From the IMG/VR virus record IMGVR_UViG_3300042934_000861, positions 17,705 through 81,704 of that record: a stretch of 64,000 nt of DNA. One strand, written 5' to 3'. This DNA comes from a virus. A program made the translations under genes and the position numbers. Numbering within the stretch: position 1 is the stretch's first letter; the number at the start of each line of letters is the position of its first letter. Positions 5,046-63,573 of this stretch are shown in pieces. A model generated the notes under the pieces. That model saw only the letters and a list, made by a program, of their open reading frames with translations, made no database searches and had not been told where the DNA came from.

Positions 5046-6011
5046 ATGGCTTGTGGATATGATGATACCTACATACTGCTATACCGCAAGCTCTTACACA
5101 ACGGTCATTTCTCCTTACCGCATATTGCTTTTAAGATATTCATTTACTTATTGTTAAAAGCAAATCGATTTCCAGATATAAAATGGAAATTAGGAATTGG
5201 TGAATGTTGGGTTAGCTATTCAGACATTCAGGCTGATTGCGCAGAGGGAGATGGAAATGTTCTCAGTAAGGCTACTGTGGCAAAAATGTTAAATTTGCTA
5301 GAGCATGGAGGATATATTAGGCGCATTGTAACGGAAGGAGTTGGTATGAAAGTGAAAGTGCAAAACTATGGGGCTTATCAATTAAAAGACACCAGTTCAT
5401 TTAGTGAACCGATAGGCATAAATGACCAGTCAACCAGTTCATTAAATGAACCGCTTACCAGTTTAGTAACCAGTTCATTAAATGAACCGCTACATGAAGA
5501 AAAAAACTCTCGAATCCTTGAAGAGGCTGTGAGTAATGCCAGTTCAACGGTTGTCGGCGGTTCATCTACCGGTTCACTTACCAGTTCACTTACCGGTTCA
5601 TCTAGTGAACACATACAAGAAAGTAATAAAGAAAGTAAAAGAATAAAGAAACATACTGTGATGGATCATTATCATGACTTGTTTGTTGAGAAGTTTGACG
5701 AGAAGCCATTTATTAATGGTGGCAAAGATGGTACCTTGCTCAAAAAAGTGATAAATACCTACGGAGAAGATAAAACAAGGTCGCTGCTAACGACTTTCTT
5801 TAATAGTGAAGATAAATTTATTAGAGATAGCGGTTACTCAATTGGCGCTTTTGTCAGTCAGATTAATAAGTTAGTAATAGCTGCAAGGGAGGTAGGAAAT
5901 CGTGGAAAAAATCAGCAACATCACAATCCTGGGCGAGTGGCAGGAAAGAGCGAAGCAAGCAAGCCAAATTTCCTCCCATTCGGTGTCCGTTGTGCAGGTG
6001 AAGACGATTGA
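5046..6011 (+). CDS. phage replication initiator (replisome organizer)
   Basis: N-terminal wHTH (YILLYRKL...FIYLLLKAN), central iteron-encoded TSSLNEP repeats, upstream of DnaC-like gene. Confidence 0.85.
   Translation: MACGYDDTYILLYRKLLHNGHFSLPHIAFKIFIYLLLKANRFPDIKWKLGIGECWVSYSDIQADCAEGDGNVLSKATVAKMLNLLEHGGYIRRIVTEGVGMKVKVQNYGAYQLKDTSSFSEPIGINDQSTSSLNEPLTSLVTSSLNEPLHEEKNSRILEEAVSNASSTVVGGSSTGSLTSSLTGSSSEHIQESNKESKRIKKHTVMDHYHDLFVEKFDEKPFINGGKDGTLLKKVINTYGEDKTRSLLTTFFNSEDKFIRDSGYSIGAFVSQINKLVIAAREVGNRGKNQQHHNPGRVAGKSEASKPNFLPFGVRCAGEDD
5391..5651. repeat. Iteron array plus A-rich tract: probable phage replication origin
   Basis: ACCAGTTCATTAAATGAACCGCT at 5433 and 5469, variants at 5391 and 5592; 12-bp RGTTCAYYTACC repeats from 5559; A-rich run 5617-5651. 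Confidence 0.85.
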
Positions 6012-51318: not shown

Positions 51319-54300
51319 ATGAGTTTTACACGTAATTTTTCGCAGGATTTACAGGCTGCAATCAAAGAAAACGAACAAAAAATATTGGATATACAATCGG
51401 AACAATATGCAAATATACCTTTAACCATAGAAAGGCCGTCAGCTGACGGCCTTTCTTCCAATCAACCTAATCAAACCTTCGTTGACTTTGGTGGATTGCA
51501 ACCATGGGAACTATCTTCTGAGGCAAATGTTGCTAATTATGATCAGCCTAAATTATCAGGGGTTTCTAAGGCAGTTGTTGATGCTTTGCCATATGGTGTT
51601 GGTAGTGCAATTTCGCTCATCAATAATGCTGTAAAAACAATGGGCAAACCTCAATATATTTCTGATAAAGAGTGGGATGCAAAGCAGCCCCCTTTAATTA
51701 AATGGATCGACAATATCGGAGAAGGTTTGCAAAAGGCATCCCCAATACAGAAGTATGAGAGTTATACTCCAGAGTGGTGGGCTCAAACTTTAACAACTAT
51801 GGCACCGCTTAGTGTTGGACTTGGCGCGGCTACCTTGGCGAGTATGAGATCTGGGAATCCATCCGCACTAGCGCAATCAGGAGAATATGCAGCAATGAAT
51901 GTACTTGGCCGTGGAATTGGTGCTGCCAAGAATGTACCTGCTGCAGCAAATGCTTTCGAAAAACTATCAGGGCTTTCGCCAGCAGCTGCTAAAATTGCTG
52001 CTAATGCGCCGGCGGCTTTATCTAAATATGCAGGTAATGTTTTAAGTGGTGCATATATTCAAGCGCCAGCTGCTTATGCTGAAGCGCAAGTTGAAGGAAA
52101 CGATGCCTATACTGAAGCGGTTGAGTCAGGACTTTCACACCAGCAAGCAGACCTTGTTCGCAAGAAAGTTGTTGAGTTGAATTTAAAACTTTTGACAGGC
52201 TCTAATGCTCTTGAAATTGCAACAGCCTTTACGGAATTGCCTTTTAAGGGACCCCAGCGAATATTGCGGAATGCGTTGGGTGAAACTGCTCGGTATGGAA
52301 TAAATGGAGTGCAAAACGCCGCGGAGGAAGTTGGTCAGGAGAACGTTAAGCGCTCAGCTTTGCTTGAAGCCTTAGATAAAGAAATACAAAGTACTGACGC
52401 AACAACTCCTGAAGGAACACAACGCCAAAAGAATTTAATTGAAGCTCGCAGTAAGATTCCAGAAGCGCAATGGAATCCTTTAAAATTGGATGATAATTTG
52501 ATGGAGCAGGCTGCAGGTGGGTTTGGGGCTGGTGTTCTGTTTAATGTTCCAGGGACGGTTTCACGTGTTAGAAAAGGTGATTTTTCAAAAGAAAAGCCTG
52601 CTGAGAATGTTACCTCTGAAATGAATGGGCTTATAAATAAACAGTCTGAAGTCAATGCTCAATCGTCACTGCCTGAAATGAAAGTACCTAGCTTTAAAAC
52701 AGAAGAAGAATTGAACAACTATGAAGTTGATGCAATCATGCAAGCTATTGATAGTGGGGATATATCGGCAGAAGATGGCATAACGCCCATAACGCCTAAA
52801 GGTACGGAACTTCTTTCGAACCTTGAACAGCAACGGAATACTTTTTTTGATAGTATTCAGCAAGCTGCTTTGCCGGTTGACACACAACAAACACCTCATG
52901 AGTATTCCATTCTGCAAAAGCCGGACTTGTCAAGTGTTGAACAAATACAGCCTTTTATAACTCCAGAGCAAAAGCAGCAGGAATTAGTGCAACAGGAGTC
53001 TTTAAAGCAAAAAGAAGGGCGACTACAGGCAGAAAAGCAATTGCTGGACATTACTGGGCAGAGTGCGGCAAATATTATAACTCCGGAATCGCCGCGAGCA
53101 ACAGATATAATTTTACCTGGTCAAACTCCTAATGAAGCTGGCATTCAAGCTATAGCTGAACTAAGGCAAAAGCTCATTCCTCAAAAACCTGAACCATTAC
53201 CGGATTCTTGGCAGGCTGGCATGAGGAGGCGCTTGGCAAGTTCTGTTCAGCGCAAAGACTTAGCAACTGCAGCGAATATTGCGCGGGAGCTTGGCTTAAA
53301 TGATAAAGTGAAACTTTATGAGGGGGCTGTTATTCAGCCTAATGTTCGTGAAAAAATAACGGTAGATGAGCTTAAACGGGCAGACAACTATAATAAGCTT
53401 GACGATTTAAGCAAGTTGTTCGTTGATGTGTTAGATCATCATAAAGCACCTCTTAACCTTGTACAAACTGAAATTGAGACTGCTCATAATCACATGGTGG
53501 ATAATTATATAAATCTTTTGCGCAACCAAATGAAACAAGGTGTTATTAGTCGTGGTGGTTCCATGAACTATAAGTGGTACCGGGATGCGCTTGAAACCTA
53601 TAAGCGCCAGATGACTAGTAAAAGCACAGGAAAAGAATATATCGGTTATCCTAAGAAGGATGATTGGGAATATATCCTTCATCAGACAGCTTTGGATCAT
53701 TTGCGTAATGGATACAATGATCCTACATATGGACCACAGATATCTGACCAGGACTTAAATTTATATAATGATTTGGAGGCTGCCATTGATGGAATCAAAC
53801 AAGTCAGAGAAAAAATCACCCCTGCCCTCGATGGGTCTTTACGAGCAAATGAGTCCAGTGGCACAAAAGGCAATCGAAGTCTTCAAGCAGCAGCACAAGA
53901 CGCAATACCGGTTGCCAGAGAACTTGGAAAACCAGTAAATAGTGATGTCTCGCCAAAGGCTCTGACAAATGAAGTAATAAAAGCACCAGTTAACAATGTT
54001 GTTTCAGAAAAAGTACCAGGTTCAGAAGAAACCTTAATTGCAGAGTCTAAATTACCAGTGCCAAAAGAGTCGAAGGTTGAATCTCCTGAAATATCTTCAC
54101 GTAATGTTGGCGAGGCTGGTTTTAACAGCAGTGAGGAAAATCGCAATCGCTTAAAAGACAAATTACTTGAAAGGGCTGGTAAAAAGCCAAAGGAATCGAA
54201 AAAAATCAACATCGTTGATGATTCGGATGCTGCATTGCAAGCTGCACTAAATGATTTACAGAAAGAACTATCAAACATATCCTCGACACCTGTTTTTAAT

Positions 54301-57300
54301 CCTGCATTGATGAGTGCTGCATTTAAAGTTGGGGCGATTCATTTGCAGCGTGGTATTAATTCTTTTTCTTCTTGGTCGGATAGGATGGTACAAACTGTTG
54401 GTAAAAAGATTGAGCCCTTTTTAAACAGTGTCTGGAAATCGATATCATCATGGCCTGCTGATGTTAAATATGACAGCGAATTGGCAAATACGTTATTTGA
54501 GTACGTTGGTGTTCTATATCAAGATGGCATTACTGGAAAAGAGGAAGTCAGGCAACGTATCAATGAAGATATTGGCTCCGAGTATGATAATCTAATCGAT
54601 GCCATTTACAATGGCGTTTCTGAATGGCCAGGATTTAAAAAGGATGTTGCGGAAATTGCAAGTTCTGGAGTAGAATCAAAGAAAGAGGGTGAGGTTAATG
54701 ATAGGGATAGCGTCAAGGATATGGAACGAAATAGCCCAGACGTGTCCGATAGAGACGGAATGGGGGCAACAATACTTCCCGATGGATCAAGAGGAGCTAG
54801 CCGAAGCGATGGAGGAAGAAGCGACAAGACTGGAAGCCAAGGGGCTGGATCAGACAGTGGTGTTGGCGTATCTGACAGTAGCTCCATTAGTGGCAGAAGC
54901 TCAGGGGATAAGGGAGTACGCCAAAACTCATCCGTGGATAAGAAACGCTCTTCCGGAAGTGACATCTTTGGAGGAAGCGACAATTCTAGCAACACGGGAG
55001 TACCGGCTGACCCAAGAGCAGCAGAAGCAGTTGATGAATCTGCTGCAGACCGAACCGAAACTTCAGAGAAGTTAGAAGCGCAGAAAAAAGCTGAATCTAT
55101 TAATGTCAAGGTAGCTGACCTGGATAACATCCGGAAAACGCTACCTTTTTTGATGCCCGAACAACAAGATGATGTTTATTTTGCTGAGCAGAGATTCACA
55201 GTGCCAGATGGTTACGGTGTGCTGTTTACAAACGGGACCGGTACTGGTAAAACATATTCCGGACTTGGGGTTGTAAAGAGATTTGCTATGCAAGGCAAGA
55301 ATAATATTCTTATTGCGGCTCCAAACAGTAAGATTATTGATGGATGGATTAGCTCTGGCAGAAACTTAAATTTGTCCATATCAAAATTGGATGATACTAA
55401 ATCAGCAGGTGCCGGTATAACAATTACAACATATGCTAATCTTGGCCAAAACCAAGAACTATCTAATCGTAATTGGGACCTGATTGTTACCGACGAATCA
55501 CATTATTTGGCTAGTAGTCAAAGTGGTGGTGTAACTGGCGCCGCAGATAATCTTCGGGCAATTGCGGTTCATAAGCGGGGATATTACTCTCGTTTTAATA
55601 ATATTGAAAAAGAACTTGTACAACAAGAAAGTGATGCATGGGACGAAGTGAGGCTTAGCGAGAAGTCGGAAGACAGGACAGCTATCGCAAAAGTACCCGC
55701 TCTTGAGAATAAGGCGAGAGAAATATCGACAAAAGTTCATGCGCTGCGTGATAAGTATTATAAAGAGTGGGATGAAATTAAGCCACAAGATAAGCCGAGG
55801 GTTTTATTTTTATCTGCTACGCCATTTGCTTATGTTGAAAATATCGACTATGCAGAAGGGTTTCTTTTTAACTATGGTGAAAGCTCGAATTCTCAGGCTT
55901 ATAATGCTCCGGATGCGAGGGAAAAGTTCTTCATTAACCATTTTGGCTACCGTATGCGATACAATAAGCTAACAAAACCTGATTCACAAGTCGATAATGA
56001 AGTAATGGAGCAGCAATTCCATGAGTGGCTGCGTAAACAAGGTTCTTTATCTGGCCGTATGCTTTCAGTAGACAAAGATTATGAGCGTAAATTCTCCCTG
56101 GTTAATGATGCTATAGGCGCTAAAATTGATGAAGGTCTTCAGTGGCTGTTTGAAACTGATAGTGGTAAATATCGCGAGTTATACGACTTTGTGATGGAAC
56201 GCTTTAAGTATCATGACCGAATGTATCTTTTGGAATCTATTAAATCGCGGCATGCCGTGAACATGATTAAAGACCATATTGCGCTAGGCCGCAAGGTAGT
56301 GGTATTCCATGATTTTAACAAAGGCGGGGGGTTCCATCCGTTTAAGTTTGACTATGTTCCAAATGATATTCGGGAACAATACAATAACTTTTCATCAAAG
56401 CGGCGTGACTTAATCAATCTGGATTTTAGTGATCTGAAGTCTCCAATTGCTCAAATGAAGGCTTCCTTTGGAGAAAAAGCTCTATTCTTTAATGGTACAG
56501 TTCCAGATAAGGTGCGTAGGAATAATGTTGATATATTTAATCAAGATGACGGCGAAAAGAGTTTACTTGTGGTTCAGTCTGATGCTGGCCGGGAAGGGAT
56601 TAGTTTACACGATACTACAGGCAAACACCAAAGAGTACTCATCAATCTTGGCATGCCTGTAAAACCGACTGCTGCGATACAAATTGAAGGACGCATTTAC
56701 CGAGTAGGGCAAAAATCGGATGCTATATTTAGGTATCTGAACACAGGAACGAGTTTTGAACGTTATACATTTGCGACTAAAATAGCTGAACGTGCTACGA
56801 CGGCTGAAAACCTTGCATTAGGGCAAGATGCGCGGAGATTAAAAGAGGCTTTTATTGATGCATACCAATTAAGTGACGATTATCCTGCTGGTGCTCAGGG
56901 TGAGGGTAGAGGTGGCAAGGCCGGGGACCGGGCAAGTCGTCAGGAAATGACCAATTTTAAAAGAGCTATATCGTATTACTTCGGTCAACAAAAGAAGACA
57001 AATAGGAACAAAGCAGCCGAGGGGACTGATTATTTTGCTACGCCAGAGCCAGTAGGCTTAAAAATGGTAGAGTGGGCTGATATGAAGGAGGGAGAAAGAG
57101 CGCTTGAACCATCGGCTGGCCATGGAGCGATTGCGAGATTTTTCCCTGAAAAAGGCGATCATGTAATGATTGAGCCGAGTTATGAACTTGGCCCATTGGC
57201 GGCTATGAATAGTCCTGCAAAGCTTGTTGCTGAACGTTTTGAAAACTATCATATAGTTAATAAGTTTCATTCTATTATAATGAACCCGCCATATGGCCAT

Positions 57301-60300
57301 GGTGGTAAGACGGCTATTGAGCATGTTGCTAAAGCCTTTCAACATTTATATAATGGCGGTAGAATCGTTGCGTTAATACCAGACGGTGGAATGACTGATA
57401 AGCGGTTTGAACGTTGGCAGGAATCAGATGCTGCTGATGGAGCTTATCTTGTAGGGGAAATAAAACTTCCGTCCGTAACCTTTGAACGCGCCGGTACTGG
57501 TATCAGAACTAAAATTGTTATTATTGAAAAGCACAAAGAAAAAGACAGTGAGTTGCTTCATAAATTACAGCAGCGTAATGTCGATCTTTCTAACGTCGAT
57601 AATATCAATGAGTTGTTTGAGCGACTAGAGAACCTATCAATGCCTGGTCGAGTTTTAAAAGACGAACAAGCTCAAAGAATGGAAGTCGTTAAGGAGCAAA
57701 AAACGGAATCTATAACTTTTGAACTTGGCGAATTTAAGCATACAAAAACTCTAAAACCTATATATGTTGCTACACCTATGAAGCACTTAGGTGATGATTT
57801 TAGTAAAATATCAAAAATCGCAAAACAACATGATGGGTGGTATAACAGTTTTAATAAGGGGGGAGCTCTAAAGGGGTTTGCATTTGAAAATGCTGCAGCC
57901 AGAAAAGCCTTTATGGATGAGATTAGTGAAACTAAACTAATTGGACAAGCAGACAAGCTTGCAGTTGGCTTTGACCCTACCTTTGGTAAATTTGATAATG
58001 TTGATATTGAAGCTGCTCTTCGCCCGTATATCAAAAAAGCGACAGATGCTATTCCGCGTTTAGTTCGATTAGGTGAGCATCTAATGGAGCAAGGATATGT
58101 AACCGGTAAACAGTGGATGGCAAAGATGCATGAAACTCTTGGCGATATGTGGAATAACTTTAGATCGGTCATTGGTAGGGTTTGGAAGGAAGTGCGGGAT
58201 GCTGCAGCAAATAAACGTACGAATAATGTAGTTGGGGGTGGTAATGGTGGACAAGGTGGAAAGCAAGCGCCTGGAGGAAGAGGCCCGTCAGAAGATAATC
58301 GAAATAACAGGAGAAGATCCGATGGAATCGGAGTGGGCAGAAACGAACATGAGGAATCTGCTGATGAAGGGGCAAGAGTACGAGAACGCTTTGAGAGCAG
58401 CTTATCAAAAGAACAAGTAGAACTGATTTTAAAGGCGATTAAAGATTATCATGGTGATCTGGCACAACAGGTTAAAACATTCATAGCTGCCGGCAAGGTC
58501 ACATATGCAATGGGAACTGTTGAAGACTTCTCTGGAATTCGTTCTCAGCAAATGGCCAGATACTTACCGCTTGATAGAAAAATCATCTTCAATCCAAACC
58601 TTTTTGGCGACGATTTAGCTCAGATATTCCTTCATGAAACTATTCATAGTATGGACCATAATGGCGTGTTTGACAGTGAAGTTCTTGGTTATATAAAAGG
58701 CAAGTGGATAACAGAAGGGACTGCTGTTATTCAGGAGCTTAGAGCTAATGATAAAATCACATATGAAAAACTTGTTGATATCATTAAAAATGAGCGAAAT
58801 TTAGATAAGTTAATAAAGCGATTTATTCAAAACCAGGATCTTGATATTCGTGCTATTAATTCTAAATTGCGTAGCTTTAGCAATGAAGATAAAACATATA
58901 CAGATTTAGTGTCTGTTTATGCGTTAGCTAAAGTGACTTTGAGTAAGCAGCAGTTTAGCCTGTTTGATAAACTCTTTGAACAAGAGGGATTAGCTTACTA
59001 TCTCTCCGAGAATCCGGATGTTGCTGCAGATGTATTAAGTCAAACACGTGGAGGCAGTCAATCAACTGACGTAGAGCCTAAAGCTGCAGAAAACAGAAAG
59101 TCATCCGTAAAAGGTGAAATGACCTTTCGTCCTGCTGCCAAGGATGGAAAAACCGATTTTACTGAACAAAACAAGCGTATGATGGCTGGCCTTGAAAAAC
59201 GTGGATGGAGTAGAAGTGAAAATCAAGACGGATCTGTAACCTATAGACAATTTGATCAGCAGGCACCCAAATCTGAAACACCAACTACTGCGGAGAGTAA
59301 CCAGGAAAGGACTGGAACTAATCAATTTAAAGTCCCAGAAAAGCTGGTGTTTAAATTTACGAAGCCTAATGTTCAAAAAATTAGTCGTAGAGAGATCCGT
59401 GATAAGATTACTGAATTATTTGCACCGGTGAGGTGGGGAAGAGCTTCGTCTTCAAATGAATTCAAAGAGTTTGCAAATGTCATCCGCAGTCAAAAAGCGT
59501 TTGACTTTCCCGGTCTGTTAAATTCAATTGGAGAGCTCTTAGACAATCAATTTAAGCTAAATGAATTGCCTCATGCCGTGGAAGTTAAAGATGGCGTAGG
59601 GCAATTTTTTATTGACTACATTACGGGGAATACCGCTCAATATCCGAACTATGCAAAAGAGTTCGAAAAGGCCATAGGAGCCAAATTGCGGGATGTTAGA
59701 ACTATTCAAGATATGATGTATCGTTGGTATAATCAAACATCCAGAGAAAGAGTAAGCGGGGTTATTTCCTGGGATCAAAAAGAAAAATTGACGATTCGAT
59801 CCTTGTCAGCTAAAAGTAAAGAACAAGCTGGTAAAGCGATGGCTTATGTTTATCGACAGCTAGTTGAGCGCCGCTTTCCTATGAAACAAGCAATTGATCA
59901 AGTAGAAAAGATGATTGGCAAAAAGCTTCCTATTGAACAGAATCCATATATTCAAGCCTTATTAACCCGTGGCTTAGCTGGTAAGGCTAATGCTATGCTT
60001 GGGATCGGTAAAAACAAAAGTACTAGTGTGCAGACTGTACGTGATGGCTTAAGGGCTGTTCACCCGAATGTAGATTTTAGCAAATTTATTCCGTTGTCTG
60101 ACATTATTAGTTCGATTGGTGCGGACCGGAATGAAGAGGTTTACCAAGAGTTATTTGAATATGTTGTTTCTAAGCATATGCTTACTGTAGCAAGTAAAAA
60201 AGAAGCACCTCTTGATTACGAAGATTGGTTAAATACGGTTGAGTCTGCACGGCCGGAAATTGTAACCGCTGGAAGGCAAATCGTTGATTTTAGTAATAAC

Positions 60301-62631
60301 CTTATGGATATCATGGTTGATTATGGTGTTGTATCTAAAGGGAAAGCTGAAGGCTTACGCAAGGCGTATCCGAACTACGTTCCCCTAATGCGTGTTTTTG
60401 AAGAAGCTGCTTATGAAAAGTTAGGCGATAGTTTAAAAGAAATGGTTGGCAGTGTGCGTGACATTGTTAATCCAGCAGAGTCTATAGTGCACAATGTCTT
60501 TAAAATGCTTGAGCAAGCTGAACGCAATAAAGTGAAGCAGCTGTTTGCTGGCATTGCAGACAATCATTCAAATATGGGGTGGCTAATAGAAGAGGTCCCT
60601 GAAATAGCATATTCCGAAAAAGAGGTTGCTCTCGAAGAGGTTGCCGAAACCATTACTAAAAAAGGCGAGACATTTGTTGAATATGATAGCCAAAATGAGC
60701 CTAAATGGTTAAATGCCGATAAGGTTGGTAATCCGGTTGATGAAAAGGGAAATGAGCTTATAATTACCCGTGGTGATGGTGGAAAGATAGAATCTATTAT
60801 TGCTAAGCGTCCTGTAAGAAATGGTGCATCGGATAAAGATAGCGTATTTAAGGTATTGGTTAATGGTAAGACCAAGTTTTATCAAATTGGGGTACCGGAA
60901 GTTTACAAGTCTATGATGGAGCAGGAAGTAGATACCTCAAACCTTTTCCTGAAATTTTTAAGTATGGTTGTACGCATTGCTAGGGCGGGTTTTGTTTCTC
61001 TGAATCCGGCTTTTCTTGCTGTGAATGTTTCGCGTGATTTGGTGACAAGCTATGTCAATTCTCCATCCGGATATATACCTAAAGGAGATTTTTTCCGTGG
61101 AATGATGGCCATTGCCAAACAGGATAAACTCTGGTGGGAATATGTATCATCCGGAACGGCCATGAGTGATTTTTATTCTACTGACCGCAATTTTGCTCAG
61201 GAAGCGATAAAAAAGATACGCAAGCAAACTGCATTAGGAAAGTTCAGCCCTATGCATATGATTGAAATGTTGGAACGTGTAGGGCAAATGGTAGAGTCTG
61301 CTCCGCGTGTTGGTGAATATATTCGTGAAAAGGAAGAAGGTTTTAGCTTACCTGAGAGAGCTCTAAATGCAAGAGATTTAACAATTGACTTTTCTAAAGG
61401 TGGCCCTGCGTCTGTTGTGTGGAATCGGGTAGCAGTATTTAGTAAAGTTACTATTCTTGATTGGGATAAGGTGTTTAGGGTCTTATTTACTGGCGGTAGT
61501 GAATTGAAAGAAAAAGTAAAAGATGTAGCTAAGGGCGAAGGTAGCGTTAAGGATGTAATGTACGATCGCACGATGCAGGCGTGGGTAAAACATATCGTGC
61601 TGCTAACGATTCCTTCGCTGCTTCTGTGGTGGATGTATAAAGATGACGATCGCTATAAGAAACTTCCGCAATGGCGTAAGGATATGTTTTGGAATGTTCC
61701 TATCAACGATACATTTACTTTTAGCGTTCCAAAACCATTTCTAGCCGGTACGATGTTTGCAACGATGCCGGTCCGGTTCATGGAGTGGTCTGTTCAAAAT
61801 AATCCTGATGCTTTCAAGGAAATGGGTAAGCTGCTCACTAATCAACTGCCTACTCTTTTGCCTACTGCGATAACGCCCGTATATGAACATATGTCAAATT
61901 ACAGTTTGTTTTCGGACAGGGGCATCGTTCCTCAGAATGAAAAGACATTGCCACCCGAGCGTCAATACGGTCCGAGTACGACACTGGTTGCACGAAAAAT
62001 TGGTGAAATTTTTGGCGTTTCTCCCCGGTTTGTTGATAACTACATCCGAGGTTACACTGGTGGTGTTGGTACTACCATGACTGAATCAATCGACCTCGCA
62101 TATGGTAAATATGAAAATGCACCGATGAGATACTGGCAGGAGTGGCCGGTAGTTCGACGCTTCTTTACTCAAAATTATCGCAATGCAGACAATATCGACG
62201 AGTTCTATAAACACTTGGAAGAATTAGAGCAAGCACATAAGGTTCAATTGATGGATACGGCTGCAGCAACCGGCAAAAGTACAAAAGAGCTACGGGATGA
62301 AGTTCCTGTTCCTCCGGATTTAAAAATGTATCGGCTAGCGAGTAAGGCTTTGCAGGACAATAGGGATCAATCTCAGACTGTACTGTTATCGCAGACAATT
62401 GATTCTAAAACTAAGCGAGAGCAAATTGATCAGCTGAGTCGTGAAGCTGTTGTGCTAGCTGACCAGGCGCTAAAAGGTGAGTTTCTTCCTGAAAAGCAGA
62501 CCCCGGCTAAAAAGAAAAATATTACCGGTGGTATCTTTGAGAAAGCTCAAAAGGAGCTACGGGAGAAGCAATCTGGAAATAGCATCTATAAGCAGGCTAT
62601 GGATAACGTACTCAAAAAAGACAAGAAGTAA
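51319..62631 (+). CDS. giant DarB-like polyvalent virion protein: SF2 (strawberry-notch-like) helicase, N6-adenine methyltransferase, HExxH zincin, LPD38-like C-terminus
   Basis: NGTGTGKT (about 55230), TDESH, LSATP, AGREGISLHD, QIEGRIYR; DYFATP/LEPSAGHG/MNPPY (57283); HETIH (58633); LPQWRKDMFW...VPKPF. Confidence 0.9.
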   Translation: MSFTRNFSQDLQAAIKENEQKILDIQSEQYANIPLTIERPSADGLSSNQPNQTFVDFGGLQPWELSSEANVANYDQPKLSGVSKAVVDALPYGVGSAISLINNAVKTMGKPQYISDKEWDAKQPPLIKWIDNIGEGLQKASPIQKYESYTPEWWAQTLTTMAPLSVGLGAATLASMRSGNPSALAQSGEYAAMNVLGRGIGAAKNVPAAANAFEKLSGLSPAAAKIAANAPAALSKYAGNVLSGAYIQAPAAYAEAQVEGNDAYTEAVESGLSHQQADLVRKKVVELNLKLLTGSNALEIATAFTELPFKGPQRILRNALGETARYGINGVQNAAEEVGQENVKRSALLEALDKEIQSTDATTPEGTQRQKNLIEARSKIPEAQWNPLKLDDNLMEQAAGGFGAGVLFNVPGTVSRVRKGDFSKEKPAENVTSEMNGLINKQSEVNAQSSLPEMKVPSFKTEEELNNYEVDAIMQAIDSGDISAEDGITPITPKGTELLSNLEQQRNTFFDSIQQAALPVDTQQTPHEYSILQKPDLSSVEQIQPFITPEQKQQELVQQESLKQKEGRLQAEKQLLDITGQSAANIITPESPRATDIILPGQTPNEAGIQAIAELRQKLIPQKPEPLPDSWQAGMRRRLASSVQRKDLATAANIARELGLNDKVKLYEGAVIQPNVREKITVDELKRADNYNKLDDLSKLFVDVLDHHKAPLNLVQTEIETAHNHMVDNYINLLRNQMKQGVISRGGSMNYKWYRDALETYKRQMTSKSTGKEYIGYPKKDDWEYILHQTALDHLRNGYNDPTYGPQISDQDLNLYNDLEAAIDGIKQVREKITPALDGSLRANESSGTKGNRSLQAAAQDAIPVARELGKPVNSDVSPKALTNEVIKAPVNNVVSEKVPGSEETLIAESKLPVPKESKVESPEISSRNVGEAGFNSSEENRNRLKDKLLERAGKKPKESKKINIVDDSDAALQAALNDLQKELSNISSTPVFNPALMSAAFKVGAIHLQRGINSFSSWSDRMVQTVGKKIEPFLNSVWKSISSWPADVKYDSELANTLFEYVGVLYQDGITGKEEVRQRINEDIGSEYDNLIDAIYNGVSEWPGFKKDVAEIASSGVESKKEGEVNDRDSVKDMERNSPDVSDRDGMGATILPDGSRGASRSDGGRSDKTGSQGAGSDSGVGVSDSSSISGRSSGDKGVRQNSSVDKKRSSGSDIFGGSDNSSNTGVPADPRAAEAVDESAADRTETSEKLEAQKKAESINVKVADLDNIRKTLPFLMPEQQDDVYFAEQRFTVPDGYGVLFTNGTGTGKTYSGLGVVKRFAMQGKNNILIAAPNSKIIDGWISSGRNLNLSISKLDDTKSAGAGITITTYANLGQNQELSNRNWDLIVTDESHYLASSQSGGVTGAADNLRAIAVHKRGYYSRFNNIEKELVQQESDAWDEVRLSEKSEDRTAIAKVPALENKAREISTKVHALRDKYYKEWDEIKPQDKPRVLFLSATPFAYVENIDYAEGFLFNYGESSNSQAYNAPDAREKFFINHFGYRMRYNKLTKPDSQVDNEVMEQQFHEWLRKQGSLSGRMLSVDKDYERKFSLVNDAIGAKIDEGLQWLFETDSGKYRELYDFVMERFKYHDRMYLLESIKSRHAVNMIKDHIALGRKVVVFHDFNKGGGFHPFKFDYVPNDIREQYNNFSSKRRDLINLDFSDLKSPIAQMKASFGEKALFFNGTVPDKVRRNNVDIFNQDDGEKSLLVVQSDAGREGISLHDTTGKHQRVLINLGMPVKPTAAIQIEGRIYRVGQKSDAIFRYLNTGTSFERYTFATKIAERATTAENLALGQDARRLKEAFIDAYQLSDDYPAGAQGEGRGGKAGDRASRQEMTNFKRAISYYFGQQKKTNRNKAAEGTDYFATPEPVGLKMVEWADMKEGERALEPSAGHGAIARFFPEKGDHVMIEPSYELGPLAAMNSPAKLVAERFENYHIVNKFHSIIMNPPYGHGGKTAIEHVAKAFQHLYNGGRIVALIPDGGMTDKRFERWQESDAADGAYLVGEIKLPSVTFERAGTGIRTKIVIIEKHKEKDSELLHKLQQRNVDLSNVDNINELFERLENLSMPGRVLKDEQAQRMEVVKEQKTESITFELGEFKHTKTLKPIYVATPMKHLGDDFSKISKIAKQHDGWYNSFNKGGALKGFAFENAAARKAFMDEISETKLIGQADKLAVGFDPTFGKFDNVDIEAALRPYIKKATDAIPRLVRLGEHLMEQGYVTGKQWMAKMHETLGDMWNNFRSVIGRVWKEVRDAAANKRTNNVVGGGNGGQGGKQAPGGRGPSEDNRNNRRRSDGIGVGRNEHEESADEGARVRERFESSLSKEQVELILKAIKDYHGDLAQQVKTFIAAGKVTYAMGTVEDFSGIRSQQMARYLPLDRKIIFNPNLFGDDLAQIFLHETIHSMDHNGVFDSEVLGYIKGKWITEGTAVIQELRANDKITYEKLVDIIKNERNLDKLIKRFIQNQDLDIRAINSKLRSFSNEDKTYTDLVSVYALAKVTLSKQQFSLFDKLFEQEGLAYYLSENPDVAADVLSQTRGGSQSTDVEPKAAENRKSSVKGEMTFRPAAKDGKTDFTEQNKRMMAGLEKRGWSRSENQDGSVTYRQFDQQAPKSETPTTAESNQERTGTNQFKVPEKLVFKFTKPNVQKISRREIRDKITELFAPVRWGRASSSNEFKEFANVIRSQKAFDFPGLLNSIGELLDNQFKLNELPHAVEVKDGVGQFFIDYITGNTAQYPNYAKEFEKAIGAKLRDVRTIQDMMYRWYNQTSRERVSGVISWDQKEKLTIRSLSAKSKEQAGKAMAYVYRQLVERRFPMKQAIDQVEKMIGKKLPIEQNPYIQALLTRGLAGKANAMLGIGKNKSTSVQTVRDGLRAVHPNVDFSKFIPLSDIISSIGADRNEEVYQELFEYVVSKHMLTVASKKEAPLDYEDWLNTVESARPEIVTAGRQIVDFSNNLMDIMVDYGVVSKGKAEGLRKAYPNYVPLMRVFEEAAYEKLGDSLKEMVGSVRDIVNPAESIVHNVFKMLEQAERNKVKQLFAGIADNHSNMGWLIEEVPEIAYSEKEVALEEVAETITKKGETFVEYDSQNEPKWLNADKVGNPVDEKGNELIITRGDGGKIESIIAKRPVRNGASDKDSVFKVLVNGKTKFYQIGVPEVYKSMMEQEVDTSNLFLKFLSMVVRIARAGFVSLNPAFLAVNVSRDLVTSYVNSPSGYIPKGDFFRGMMAIAKQDKLWWEYVSSGTAMSDFYSTDRNFAQEAIKKIRKQTALGKFSPMHMIEMLERVGQMVESAPRVGEYIREKEEGFSLPERALNARDLTIDFSKGGPASVVWNRVAVFSKVTILDWDKVFRVLFTGGSELKEKVKDVAKGEGSVKDVMYDRTMQAWVKHIVLLTIPSLLLWWMYKDDDRYKKLPQWRKDMFWNVPINDTFTFSVPKPFLAGTMFATMPVRFMEWSVQNNPDAFKEMGKLLTNQLPTLLPTAITPVYEHMSNYSLFSDRGIVPQNEKTLPPERQYGPSTTLVARKIGEIFGVSPRFVDNYIRGYTGGVGTTMTESIDLAYGKYENAPMRYWQEWPVVRRFFTQNYRNADNIDEFYKHLEELEQAHKVQLMDTAAATGKSTKELRDEVPVPPDLKMYRLASKALQDNRDQSQTVLLSQTIDSKTKREQIDQLSREAVVLADQALKGEFLPEKQTPAKKKNITGGIFEKAQKELREKQSGNSIYKQAMDNVLKKDKK
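53789..53938 (+). CDS. putative nested (+1 frame) 49-aa ORF inside giant gene
   Basis: GGAGG SD at 53775; MESNKSEKK...YEQMSPVAQKAIEVFKQQH. Confidence 0.35.
   Translation: MESNKSEKKSPLPSMGLYEQMSPVAQKAIEVFKQQHKTQYRLPENLENQ
54698..55075 (+). CDS. putative nested (+1 frame) 125-aa helical protein inside giant gene
   Basis: GAGGGTGAGG SD; globular-looking sequence while the host frame is a Ser/Gly/Asp/Arg low-complexity linker. Confidence 0.6.
   Translation: MIGIASRIWNEIAQTCPIETEWGQQYFPMDQEELAEAMEEEATRLEAKGLDQTVVLAYLTVAPLVAEAQGIREYAKTHPWIRNALPEVTSLEEATILATREYRLTQEQQKQLMNLLQTEPKLQRS
58244..58420 (+). CDS. putative nested (+1 frame) 58-aa helical protein inside giant gene
   Basis: GGGGGTG SD (used by other genes here); MVDKVESKRLEEEARQKIIEITGEDPM...; host frame is a Gly/Arg-rich linker. 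Confidence 0.5.
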   Translation: MVDKVESKRLEEEARQKIIEITGEDPMESEWAETNMRNLLMKGQEYENALRAAYQKNK

Positions 62632-63241: not shown

Positions 63242-63573
63242 TGTTTTGGCAGAATGTACGGCAGGTTGTATCTAACCTGCCATTAGTATTATGCGAGAGC
63301 GACGATGCCAAAGACGTATCTTTAAATCGCGTTATCATTGCTATGTTGGCTGTTACCGTGCTAGTAATTGTTTATCGTATGCTTTTGTATCCAGATACGG
63401 CTGTAAACCTTACTAGCATGCTGGATAAGGTTTTAACTGCGCTGGGACTACAATTAGGAAGCAATACGATTAAACGTGGCTTAGATACATGGCGACAAAT
63501 TGAAGGAGGGAAAGGGAATGCGGAAAGTAACATTAATGGAACTCAGGCAAATTGCACTGCAGAGCAAAAATAA
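63241..63573 (+). CDS. putative holin
   Basis: Two hydrophobic segments; upstream of amidase. Confidence 0.6.
   Translation: MFWQNVRQVVSNLPLVLCESDDAKDVSLNRVIIAMLAVTVLVIVYRMLLYPDTAVNLTSMLDKVLTALGLQLGSNTIKRGLDTWRQIEGGKGNAESNINGTQANCTAEQK

What the first reader, a model, noticed from the sequence alone, without database searches (positions are those of the whole stretch)
53789..58420. Three RBS-bearing nested ORFs in the +1 frame inside the linkers of the 3770-aa virion protein
Seen: ORFs at 53789-53938 (GGAGG), 54698-55075 (GAGGGTGAGG) and 58244-58420 (GGGGGTG) all lie in the same +1 frame and encode helical, protein-like sequences. Over the second and third ORFs especially, the giant protein becomes a low-complexity S/G/D/R linker (for example 'EVNDRDSVKD...', 'GGGNGGQGGKQAPGG...'). 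The same signature appears where real neighbouring genes overlap elsewhere in this window (5902-6011, 35531-35679, 63518-63573). Inference: these are overprinted genes, possibly inhibitors, immunity proteins or chaperones for the adjacent helicase, methyltransferase and peptidase domains, retained when modules were fused into a polyprotein. This would be an unannotated gene-within-gene control layer of polyvalent proteins.
Basis: partly seen in the sequence, partly recalled or inferred. Interest (0 to 1): 0.78.

Follow-up and report, generated by a model that had tools for sequence, protein, structure and literature searches.

The report
Hidden genes inside giant phage gene
Inside the 11-kb gene for a giant injected phage protein, at least two small genes are written one base out of frame across its floppy linkers, so the same DNA encodes two proteins where annotation sees one.

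Summary
The three +1-frame ORFs exist as described. Their length alone is not beyond chance (synonymous shuffles, P = 0.09, 0.14, 0.44). Comparison with relatives shows they are special.

ORF B (54698-55075):
- Substitutions fall on the wobble position of the +1 frame. dN/dS is 0.08 in the nested frame and about 2 in the giant frame.
- The giant frame is still kept free of stops by selection.
- A homologue sits in the +1 frame of a giant ORF in all 33 related loci examined. These include six cultured phages that do not annotate it.
- An ATG with a Shine-Dalgarno motif is conserved.
- A profile finds 416 database relatives and matches no known family.

ORF C (58244-58420) shows the same signature (0.06 against 1.0), but from a single relative. 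ORF A (53789-53938) is an outlier but ambiguous.

So B, and very probably C, are real nested genes. The "linkers" are neutral spacers of the giant protein. Function is unknown. The inhibitor, chaperone and fusion-relic ideas remain untested.

Earlier notes of this scan report the same phenomenon on other DNA. I found no paper that describes it.

The parts
51319..62631 (+). Giant outer gene, 3770 aa polyvalent DarB-like protein: SF2 helicase, NPPY methyltransferase motif, HExxH motif, LPD38 end. It contains no cysteine.
   Evidence: Pfam ResIII, Helicase_C, Helicase_C_4 and LPD38. Motifs GTGKT at aa 1308, DESH 1392, NPPY 1989 and HETIH 2439, and 0 Cys.
54698..55075 (+). Nested gene B, +1 frame, 125 aa, pI 4.6. 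Member of a widespread unnamed family of about 120 aa proteins.
   Evidence: W against L003: codon-position changes 39/13/10 against 430/272/1403 gene-wide. dN/dS 0.076 nested against 2.06 giant frame. Nested in the +1 frame in all related loci. 416 profile hits.
54685..54694 (+). Shine-Dalgarno-like GAGGGTGAGG ahead of the ATG of B.
   Evidence: An SD core lies at -16..-4 in 28 of 32 loci, against 221 of 2198 other +1-frame ATGs.
54698..55075 (+). Giant-frame spacer over B (aa 1127-1253), rich in S/G/D/R. It shows no amino-acid constraint but is kept free of stops.
   Evidence: Giant-frame dN/dS 2.06. Resampling B's codons gives a mean of 7.3 giant-frame stops and none stop-free in 5000. 0 of 37 at-risk junctions carry T. 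0 giant-frame stops in 32 of 32 loci.
58244..58420 (+). Nested gene C, +1 frame, 58 aa, pI 4.9, just upstream of the HExxH region.
   Evidence: Changes 12/5/5 (Fisher P = 4.7e-5). dN/dS 0.064 nested against 0.99 giant frame. ATG and GGAGG/GGGGG conserved in L003. Only one relative is available.
58234..58241 (+). SD-like GGGGGTGG ahead of C.
   Evidence: L003 has GGAGGTGG.
53789..53938 (+). Candidate nested gene A, +1 frame, 49 aa, pI 8.1. Status open.
   Evidence: Changes 12/4/12 (P = 0.0055). 0 of 652 control windows reach its ratio. However, dN/dS is 0.43 nested against 0.66 giant frame. L003 and L005 keep an ATG right after a +1 stop at the same place.
53775..53779 (+). GGAGG ahead of A. 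It may be a by-product of the giant-frame residues Leu-Glu-Ala.
55216..56886 (+). Helicase module of the giant protein, directly downstream of B. It always travels with B.
   Evidence: Pfam ResIII at aa 1300-1400 and Helicase_C_4 reaching aa 1856. All 8 phage records (six phages) that cover at least 53% of the giant-protein query, including the helicase (H1-H8), carry B.

Best explanation
The gene for the giant polyvalent DarB-like protein is dual-coding at its linkers.

Shown:
- Over 54698-55075 (B) and 58244-58420 (C), amino-acid selection acts on the +1 frame. The giant frame is constrained only to stay free of stop codons.
- The giant protein is therefore still made as one chain, with a neutral hydrophilic spacer at these places.
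- B belongs to a conserved family of acidic proteins of about 120 aa that is always found nested just upstream of the helicase module.

Inferred:
- Each small protein is made on its own, by ribosomes that start at a conserved internal Shine-Dalgarno plus ATG on the giant gene's mRNA.
- Hydrophilic linkers are natural cradles for such genes, because a +1 stop needs a hydrophobic codon in the giant frame.
- Because B travels with the helicase-methyltransferase module when modules are exchanged between phages, its product most likely acts together with that module, as a trans-acting partner (regulator, assembly or packaging helper, or specificity subunit). I put that last step at about one in three.

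A (53789-53938) is probably a third such gene (about 0.5).
For: Codon-position test, W against L003 (about 83% aa identity):
- Gene-wide changes at giant codon positions 1/2/3 are 430/272/1403 over 3763 codons.
- B has 39/13/10 (P = 5e-17), C 12/5/5 (P = 4.7e-5) and A 12/4/12 (P = 0.0055).
- The seven other long +1 open stretches give P = 0.04-0.84.
- 0 of 652 control windows reach the ratios of A, B or C.

dN/dS:
- B: nested 0.076 (dS 0.80), giant frame 2.06.
- C: nested 0.064, giant frame 0.99.
- Helicase control: giant frame 0.054 (dS 0.78), its +1 frame 2.55.

The flip over B recurs in W against L005 and in four independent pairs: L023-L030 18/8/7, L002-L007 31/15/14, L032-L035 30/18/14 and L016-L017 24/15/11. 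W against L002 gives a BLOSUM62 local score of 182 in the +1 frame and 95 in the giant frame.

The giant frame is kept open. Resampling the nested codons gives a mean of 7.3 (B) and 6.0 (C) giant-frame stops, with none stop-free in 5000. 0 of 37 (B) and 0 of 26 (C) at-risk junctions carry T.

Nesting:
- The giant frame has 0 stops across B in 32 of 32 loci, and in 17 of 17 metagenome loci including L034.
- The offset of B from the annotated giant CDS start is 1 modulo 3 in 6 of 6 cultured phages: ZX1, 45A6, 1.232.O, Skulduggery, Parlo and D274. None of them annotates B.

Start signals:
- A conserved start codon lies 8-10 residues before the conserved IWN motif: ATG in 31 of 32 loci, GTG in L019.
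- An SD core is present in 28 of 32 loci, against a background of 221 of 2198.
- In 7 of 32 loci a +1-frame stop directly precedes the ATG.

Family: 416 hits at E <= 1e-3 and 183 at E <= 1e-10. Most of the 150 listed are 115-140 aa long, match over their full length and begin at the same Met.
Against: - ORF length alone is within chance.
- There is no direct evidence of translation. No RNA run holds the stretch, and no Ribo-seq or proteomics was available.
- C and A rest on one relative, L003. Other relatives are not homologous there.
- For A the two frames look alike (dN/dS 0.43 against 0.66; identities 42/59 against 43/59). Its GGAGG and ATG can follow from the giant-frame residues Leu-Glu-Ala and (Asp/Asn)-(Gly/Ala).
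- The promoter scan shows no excess: 11 found against 12.0 +/- 3.2 expected.
- No Pfam, PHROG, NCBIfam, PADLOC or PDB match exists, so function is inference only.
- Among the 12 of the 150 listed hits whose sequences I read, seven were longer than 200 aa. Two (P0046, P0069) carry the B domain in the same frame as an upstream domain, and others (P0007, P0042, P0055) carry long C-terminal extensions. B is therefore not always a free 125-aa product, or these copies are broken. I could not fetch their DNA.
- Nesting was verified in 33 loci, not in all 416 hits. Several loci are near-duplicates (L021/L022, L026/L027, L028/L030/L031, L029/L033, L011/L038).
Confidence: 0.85

Rival explanations
1. The ORFs are chance by-products of hydrophilic linkers. 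A +1 stop needs an NTA or NTG codon in the giant frame, so linkers poor in Leu/Ile/Val/Met are open in +1 without any gene being there.
For: Synonymous shuffles reach the observed lengths with P = 0.086, 0.141 and 0.442. NTA/NTG codons are 9 of 135 in B against 11.6% gene-wide. For A the two frames are about equally conserved.
Against: Chance does not explain several results. The wobble position flips. dN/dS in the nested frame is 0.06-0.08. The +1 peptide is conserved down to 33-40% identity across phages of different hosts. 416 profile hits exist. T is avoided at all 37 junctions that could create a giant-frame stop.
Confidence: 0.03
2. Programmed ribosomal frameshifting. Either the +1 segments are read as part of the giant protein (a shift in and a shift back), or they give a truncated or N-terminally new isoform. 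They would not be free small proteins.
For: A few database proteins carry the B domain in frame with an upstream domain (P0046, P0069) or with long C-terminal tails (P0007, P0042, P0055).
Against: In 7 of 32 loci a +1-frame stop lies directly before the ATG, so a ribosome shifted upstream would terminate. An ATG with an SD motif is conserved. 0 of 32 loci have an in-phase XXXYYYZ heptamer in the last 20 codons of B, and B's tail varies in length and sequence. If the segment were read in +1 only, the giant frame would not need to stay open, yet it does.
Confidence: 0.05
3. B and C are real nested genes, but A is not. Its signal would come from a short stretch constrained in the giant frame plus a neighbouring hypervariable segment.
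For: A's dN/dS is 0.43 nested against 0.66 giant frame. The flip is confined to about 30 codons (53840-53935) with 8 substitutions. The SD and ATG are explainable from giant-frame residues. The +1 similarity to L005 scores 51, against 54 for the giant frame. A has no database homologue beyond L003 and a marginal L005 hit at E = 0.09.
Against: 0 of 652 control windows reach A's ratio. Three genomes keep an ATG right after a +1 stop at the same place, followed by an open frame of 49-62 codons. Giant-frame third positions are almost invariant in its second half, with 1 change in about 30 codons.
Confidence: 0.45
4. The constraint is on the nucleic acid, for example an RNA structure or a regulatory or packaging signal in the linkers, and not on a second protein.
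For: Giant-frame third positions are unusually conserved over B and C: 0.07-0.08 against 0.37 gene-wide.
Against: Changes keep a strict period of three, with a free position every third base. The +1 peptides remain alignable at 33-40% identity where the DNA is no longer similar (no megablast match; tblastn hits). No RNA fold or Rfam search was run on these segments, so this reading is rejected on the periodicity alone.
Confidence: 0.02

Closest known systems
Rz/Rz1 spanin genes, embedded class (phage lambda and many others). Seen here in passages of PMC9144972, which describe Rz1 lying wholly within Rz in Bcep22-like phages. That Rz1 of lambda is in the +1 frame is from my own recall.
   Same: A small gene lies wholly inside a larger gene on the same strand in another frame, has its own start, and is missed unless looked for.
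   Different: B, C and A have no lipoprotein signal. The single Cys of B is not conserved. Here the outer frame is an unconstrained spacer rather than a functional domain. The host gene is an 11-kb polyvalent protein gene, not a lysis gene.
Spacer of the hepatitis B virus polymerase overlapping the preS/S envelope gene.
   Same: A tolerant spacer of a large multidomain protein shares its DNA with a constrained gene in another frame. The spacer evolves as the passive frame.
   Different: That is an animal virus with a compact genome in which most genes overlap. Here the genome is an 82-kb phage without such pressure for compaction, and the nested product is a new family.
comS inside srfAB of Bacillus subtilis
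   Same: A small out-of-frame ORF is embedded in a giant multimodular gene and co-transcribed with it.
   Different: comS is a 46-aa regulatory peptide in one lineage. B is a folded-looking protein of about 120 aa, conserved across phages of several bacterial phyla.
Polyvalent proteins and P1 DarB (Iyer et al. 2017, PMC5512222, searched by terms only). DarB-like virion protein of Bcep22-like podophages (PMC9144972, passages: gp69 found in virions with 51 unique peptides).
   Same: The outer gene is of this kind: helicase, NPPY methyltransferase, HExxH peptidase-like region and LPD38 in one chain.
   Different: The 2017 survey has 0 occurrences of 'overlapping' and of 'frameshift', so the nested layer is not part of the described system. 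Two tblastn queries of the B family against 50,697 phage records hit only six phages. P1 is not among them.
Nested genes in other DarB-like giant genes noted earlier by this scan (e1-5356815, e1-3777897, e1-5974219, e1-6095772, e1-5901457, e1-6093053, e1-6093044, e1-2771386). These are AI notes and are unpublished.
   Same: A +1-frame gene lies over a low-complexity linker of a giant methyltransferase-helicase gene, both frames are kept, and it is unannotated.
   Different: Whether B belongs to the same protein families is untested. The TnpV model named in e1-5974219 finds nothing in this genome. The word look-up with B and with P0050 found no look-alike beyond this genome and its L003-like relative.

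Membership tests
Same-strand nested (embedded) overlapping gene pair | The inner ORF lies wholly inside the outer ORF, on the same strand, in a different frame | tested here: met
   A, B and C all start at positions that are 2 modulo 3, against 1 modulo 3 for the giant ORF. The same holds in relatives and relative to the annotated CDS in six cultured phages.
Same-strand nested (embedded) overlapping gene pair | Purifying selection on the amino-acid sequence of the inner frame | tested here: met
   B has dN/dS 0.076 and C 0.064. The flip over B is replicated in five further pairs. For A the result is inconclusive (0.43 against 0.66).
Same-strand nested (embedded) overlapping gene pair | The outer frame is kept open by selection across the overlap | tested here: met
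   None of 5000 resamplings is stop-free for B or C. 0 of 37 and 0 of 26 at-risk junctions carry T. 0 giant-frame stops in 32 of 32 loci.
Same-strand nested (embedded) overlapping gene pair | The inner gene has its own translation start signals | tested here: met
   The start codon is conserved (ATG in 31 of 32 loci, GTG in L019). An SD core is present in 28 of 32 loci against a 10% background. C's ATG and SD are kept in L003. This is sequence evidence only.
Same-strand nested (embedded) overlapping gene pair | The inner product is shown to be translated | not testable with these tools
   No RNA holder was listed. No Ribo-seq or proteomics was at hand.
Rz1-type outer-membrane spanin | N-terminal lipoprotein signal with a conserved lipobox Cys | tested here: not met
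   Read from the alignments. The Cys of B (residue 16) is present only in W, L003 and L005, and there is no hydrophobic signal. C and A have no Cys.
TnpV (Pfam PF14198) | A match to the family model | tested here: not met
   The six-frame search of the whole 81.7-kb record gave 0 matches at E <= 10.
PrmC/HemK N-terminal helical domain (Pfam PF17827) | A match to the family model or to solved HemK chains above threshold | tested here: not met
   2 of 60 family members match, best E = 0.0097, below the cut-off. The profile against PDB 2b3t_A and 1t43_A gives E = 0.41 over profile positions 68-120. This is a lead only.
Programmed -1 frameshift site | An in-phase slippery heptamer XXXYYYZ near the end of the inner frame, conserved among relatives | tested here: not met
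   0 of 32 loci.
Polyvalent protein (outer gene) | Several unrelated enzymatic and LPD domains in one very long polypeptide of a phage or plasmid | tested here: met
   Pfam ResIII, Helicase_C, Helicase_C_4 and LPD38. NPPY and HExxH motifs. Homologues are annotated as DarB-like antirestriction protein.

The most novel reading that the evidence does not exclude
The disordered linkers of injected polyvalent proteins would be a general, hidden coding layer. Each enzymatic module of the giant protein would carry, nested in the spacer in front of it, the gene for its own small trans-acting subunit. B would serve the helicase-methyltransferase module, for example as a HemK-N-like substrate or specificity domain, or as a packaging or activity switch. 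C would serve the HExxH peptidase module. Module and partner could then never be separated by recombination. Anti-restriction by DarB-like proteins would require these unannotated proteins.
Probability: 0.2. Interest if true: 0.85.

Novelty: new variant of a known kind. Interest (0 to 1): 0.72.

Why it matters
DarB-like polyvalent proteins are widespread anti-restriction weapons of phages and plasmids, and they are always annotated as one gene. This report shows a conserved, unnamed protein family (416 database relatives) that exists, as far as examined, only as a gene hidden in the +1 frame of these giant genes. Six cultured phages of Klebsiella, Serratia, Pseudomonas, Vibrio and Ruegeria are among the carriers, so it can be tested directly.

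Three consequences follow:
- Gene callers that forbid same-strand nesting miss real genes systematically.
- "Low-complexity linkers" in giant proteins can be the passive frame of another gene rather than designed spacers.
- Knockouts or truncations of DarB-like genes may also destroy a second gene, which affects how such experiments are read.

The case is also a clean natural example of how hydrophilic linkers favour overprinting.

Tried and rejected
Length statistics. Uniform and synonymous-shuffle models show that the ORF lengths are not significant. I therefore did not use length as evidence.

Antisense ORFs over the same places (54606-55130, 57672-58172) lie in the antisense frame that has the fewest stops gene-wide (137 against 157 and 242). 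I did not pursue them.

Function:
- Pfam, PHROGs, NCBIfam, PADLOC and PDB sequence searches gave nothing significant.
- The HemK-N resemblance is below threshold.

Own promoters: there is no excess of sigma-70-like sites.

Frameshift sites: none were found.

More relatives for A and C:
- The viral-contig scan with the flanking protein found only the L003 contig.
- tblastn of C against phages gave no match.
- The protein search with C found no candidate in the 31-102 aa range.
- phmmer of A and C against all ORFs of the fetched loci found only L003 and a marginal L005 hit for A.

Sequencing runs. No RNA holder was listed. The second soil run X2, laid on 53700-58500, gave contigs identical to the window (0 other letters in the 8 pieces shown). 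It added no variation.

A search of 400 genomes of one class with the B profile found it only in the genome already known.

tblastn of P0069 against plasmids gave no match.

Literature. Searches (listings and abstracts), plus term look-ups in PMC5512222 and PMC9144972, found no description of a gene nested in a DarB-like or polyvalent gene. Subscription journals are not covered. Supplements were not asked for.

Counting notes:
- L004, L006, L012, L013 and L018 are re-fetches of loci already counted and were left out.
- L034 was left out because its start was not set, but it is counted.
- One search kept only pairs with 55-97% identity in B and left out the short loci L036-L038.
- One search dropped windows with fewer than 8 changes at positions 1 plus 3.

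Full report
WHAT IS THERE

The window is bases 17705-81704 of an 81.7-kb viral record with direct terminal repeats. The same sequence occurs in contigs of two soil metagenome studies.

The ORF 51319-62631 (+) encodes 3770 aa. It carries Pfam ResIII, Helicase_C, Helicase_C_4 and LPD38 domains. It also carries the motifs GTGKT, DESH, NPPY and HETIH. Homologous giant genes of cultured podophages are annotated "DarB-like antirestriction protein" or "PLxRFG protein". A protein of this kind was found in virions of a Bcep22-like phage (PMC9144972, passages).

The three ORFs of the finding lie in its +1 frame, with the stated purine-rich motifs upstream.

IS LENGTH ALONE MEANINGFUL? NO

A +1 stop requires an NTA or NTG codon in the giant frame, that is, a Leu, Ile, Val or Met. 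Hydrophilic linkers are therefore open in +1 by default.
- The giant-frame peptide over B has 9 such codons in 135, against 11.6% gene-wide.
- In 2000 shuffles of synonymous codons, open stretches at least as long arose at the same places with P = 0.086 (A), 0.141 (B) and 0.442 (C).
- B's 133-codon stretch, the longest of the gene, was matched somewhere in the gene in 19.7% of shuffles.

THE DECISIVE EVIDENCE IS COMPARATIVE

A scan of viral contigs gave two relatives. L003 has a giant gene of 3766 aa at about 83% identity and later proved to be a prophage of Anaerospora hongkongensis DSM 15969. L002 has a giant gene of 3501 aa at about 20-65% identity. Both keep a +1 ORF at the place of B.

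Counting differences between the window and L003 by codon position of the giant frame:
- The gene as a whole gives 430/272/1403 over 3763 codons, the normal third-position wobble.
- B gives 39/13/10 (Fisher P = 5e-17).
- C gives 12/5/5 (P = 4.7e-5).
- A gives 12/4/12 (P = 0.0055, with the flip confined to about 53840-53935).
- The seven other long +1 open stretches, used as controls, look normal (P = 0.04-0.84).

In a gene-wide scan, 0 of 652 control windows of 61 codons reached the first-position share of A (0.50), B (0.80) or C (0.71). The maximum was 0.444, inside a tract of generally low divergence.

Nei-Gojobori estimates say the same:
- B has dN/dS 0.076 in the nested frame, with dS 0.80. 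In the giant frame it is 2.06.
- C has 0.064 nested against 0.99 in the giant frame.
- The helicase region, as control, has 0.054 in the giant frame (dS 0.78) and 2.55 in its +1 frame.

Over B and C the giant frame therefore behaves like an off-frame. These estimates are biased in overlaps and serve as illustration. The position counts are the test.

BOTH FRAMES ARE KEPT

If only the +1 frame mattered, the giant frame should contain stops. Resampling the nested codons from the window's own codon usage gives a mean of 7.3 giant-frame stops in B and 6.0 in C, and none of 5000 resamplings was stop-free. The same holds for B in L003 and L002.

The mechanism is visible in the sequence. A giant-frame stop needs a nested codon ending in T before a codon starting AA, AG or GA. 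0 of 37 such junctions in B and 0 of 26 in C have T. Nested third-position T is 12% in B, against 36% in the window's long ORFs.

So the giant protein is made as one chain, and the spacer sequence is whatever B and C leave.

B IS A CONSERVED, ALWAYS-NESTED GENE FAMILY

B is the only +1 ORF of the window whose peptide matches all distant relatives: E = 2e-16 to 2e-60 in L005, L002, L007 and L008.

Further relatives came from several sources:
- viral contigs;
- cultured phages, by tblastn;
- bacterial genomes and MAGs of Anaerospora, Selenomonas, Selenomonadaceae, Desulfovibrio and a gammaproteobacterium;
- metagenome contigs.

In 32 of 32 loci tabulated, the giant frame has no stop across B. 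In 17 of 17 metagenome loci, including L034, it spans the whole match, usually the whole locus. Several loci are near-duplicates.

In the six cultured phages the offset of B from the annotated giant CDS start is 1 modulo 3. No feature other than the giant CDS is annotated over it.

All 8 phage records (six phages) that cover at least 53% of the 1701-aa giant-protein query, including the helicase (H1-H8), carry B.

In three loci (L015, L025, L035) the outer ORF begins only about 170-210 codons upstream of B. The constant unit is thus a short upstream domain, then B, then the helicase.

L005 shares only this central module with the window and is unrelated elsewhere. B therefore moves with the module.

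The wobble flip over B recurs in W-L005 and in four independent pairs. B is about as conserved as the adjacent helicase.

A profile of six B sequences found 416 representatives at E <= 1e-3 and 183 at E <= 1e-10 among 1.84 billion. Most of the 150 listed are 115-140 aa long and begin at the same Met. The ten I looked up come mostly from contigs of 0.5-15 kb, where gene callers cannot see the giant ORF whole.

HOW THE SMALL PROTEINS ARE PROBABLY MADE

A conserved start codon lies 8-10 residues before the conserved IWN motif: ATG in 31 of 32 loci and GTG in L019. A GGAG, GAGG or AGGA core lies at -16..-4 in 28 of 32 loci, against 221 of 2198 other +1-frame ATGs in the same giant ORFs. The loci are not all independent, so the binomial P is only indicative.

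In 7 of 32 loci a +1 stop directly precedes the ATG. No in-phase slippery heptamer occurs near B's end in any of the 32 loci. Together with the need to keep the giant frame open, this argues against frameshifting and for internal initiation.

There is no excess of promoter-like sites. I therefore assume translation from the giant gene's own mRNA. None of this is direct evidence of expression.

C AND A

C (58 aa, pI 4.9) has a conserved ATG and SD in L003. From residue 20 on there is 1 difference in 43 residues, where the giant frame has 8. It has no other relative. I rate it about 0.8.

A (49 aa, pI 8.1) is an outlier in the gene-wide scan. In L003 and L005 it keeps an ATG immediately after a +1 stop. 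However, the two frames are equally conserved, and its GGAGG and ATG follow from the conserved giant-frame residues. I rate it about 0.5.

FUNCTION

B is 125 aa, 14.3 kDa, pI 4.6 and net charge about -9. It has conserved motifs (IWNxIA, T.W, APLLAER.AI, ALPEV.S..EA) that suggest a helical bundle. This is read from the alignment and was not predicted by a tool. Nothing matches in Pfam, PHROGs, NCBIfam, PADLOC or PDB.

A sub-threshold resemblance of its C-terminal half to the N-terminal helical domain of the HemK/PrmC methyltransferase is a lead only (PDB E = 0.41; Pfam PF17827 in 2 of 60 members). It is of interest because the giant protein carries an NPPY methyltransferase. The TnpV model is negative.

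My best guess, from the obligate linkage with the helicase-methyltransferase module, is a trans-acting partner of that module. This is inference.

WHAT IS KNOWN

Nested same-strand genes are known in phages. One case is Rz1 within Rz (PMC9144972, passages). Another is the overlapping genes of phiX174 (recall).

A tolerant spacer that shares DNA with a constrained gene is known from the hepatitis B virus polymerase (recall). A small ORF inside a giant modular gene is known from comS in srfAB (recall).

The survey that defined polyvalent proteins does not mention overlapping genes (PMC5512222, term search). My six literature searches found no description of genes nested in DarB-like genes.

Earlier AI notes of this scan report the same phenomenon on other DNA. 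I took two leads from them, TnpV and own promoters. Both tested negative here.

VERDICT

- The overprinting claim is supported for B (about 0.95) and C (about 0.8), and open for A.
- The functional and fusion-origin claims are untested.
- This is a new variant of a known kind.

Noticed in passing
window 51319-62631: The 3770-aa giant protein contains no cysteine at all, while the nested B has one. Strict Cys avoidance may relate to passage through the tail and periplasm.
   Followed up: no
window 56179-56900 (giant aa about 1621-1860): A tract of unusually low divergence from L003 at all codon positions (third position 0.08-0.23, against 0.37 gene-wide). It looks like recent recombination between the two phage lineages rather than a further nested gene. 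The +1 ORF 56459-56662 inside it has the normal pattern, 1/1/7.
   Followed up: partly
window 53929-54200 (giant aa about 871-960): A hypervariable segment just after A. About 40-55% of bases differ from L003 at all three codon positions, so it is effectively unalignable or replaced.
   Followed up: no
L005 (IMGVR_UViG_651324002_000003) against the window: The giant gene is mosaic. Only the central module (giant aa about 900-2100: upstream domain, B, helicase, methyltransferase) is shared, at 50-88% aa identity. The N- and C-terminal thirds are at about 20% identity.
   Followed up: partly
database proteins P0046/P0157 (Bradyrhizobium japonicum chromosome, 309/329 aa), P0069 (413 aa), P0007 (557 aa, Bacillota MAG): These carry the B domain in the same frame as an upstream domain resembling the giant-frame domain before B, or with long C-terminal extensions. 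They may be unnested, fused or broken forms. Their DNA could not be fetched.
   Followed up: no
window 54606-55130 (-) and 57672-58172 (-); L003 8543-9067 (-): Long antisense ORFs (174 and 166 aa) overlap B and the region before C, and one is retained in L003. They lie in the antisense frame with the fewest stops gene-wide, so they are probably compositional.
   Followed up: no
Their true extent was not examined.
   Followed up: no
L013 (NZ_SLUI01000001.1, 141946-154320): The close relative L003 is a prophage in a 455-kb contig of Anaerospora hongkongensis DSM 15969. This points to Negativicutes as hosts for this phage group, and further relatives occur in Selenomonas genomes.
   Followed up: partly
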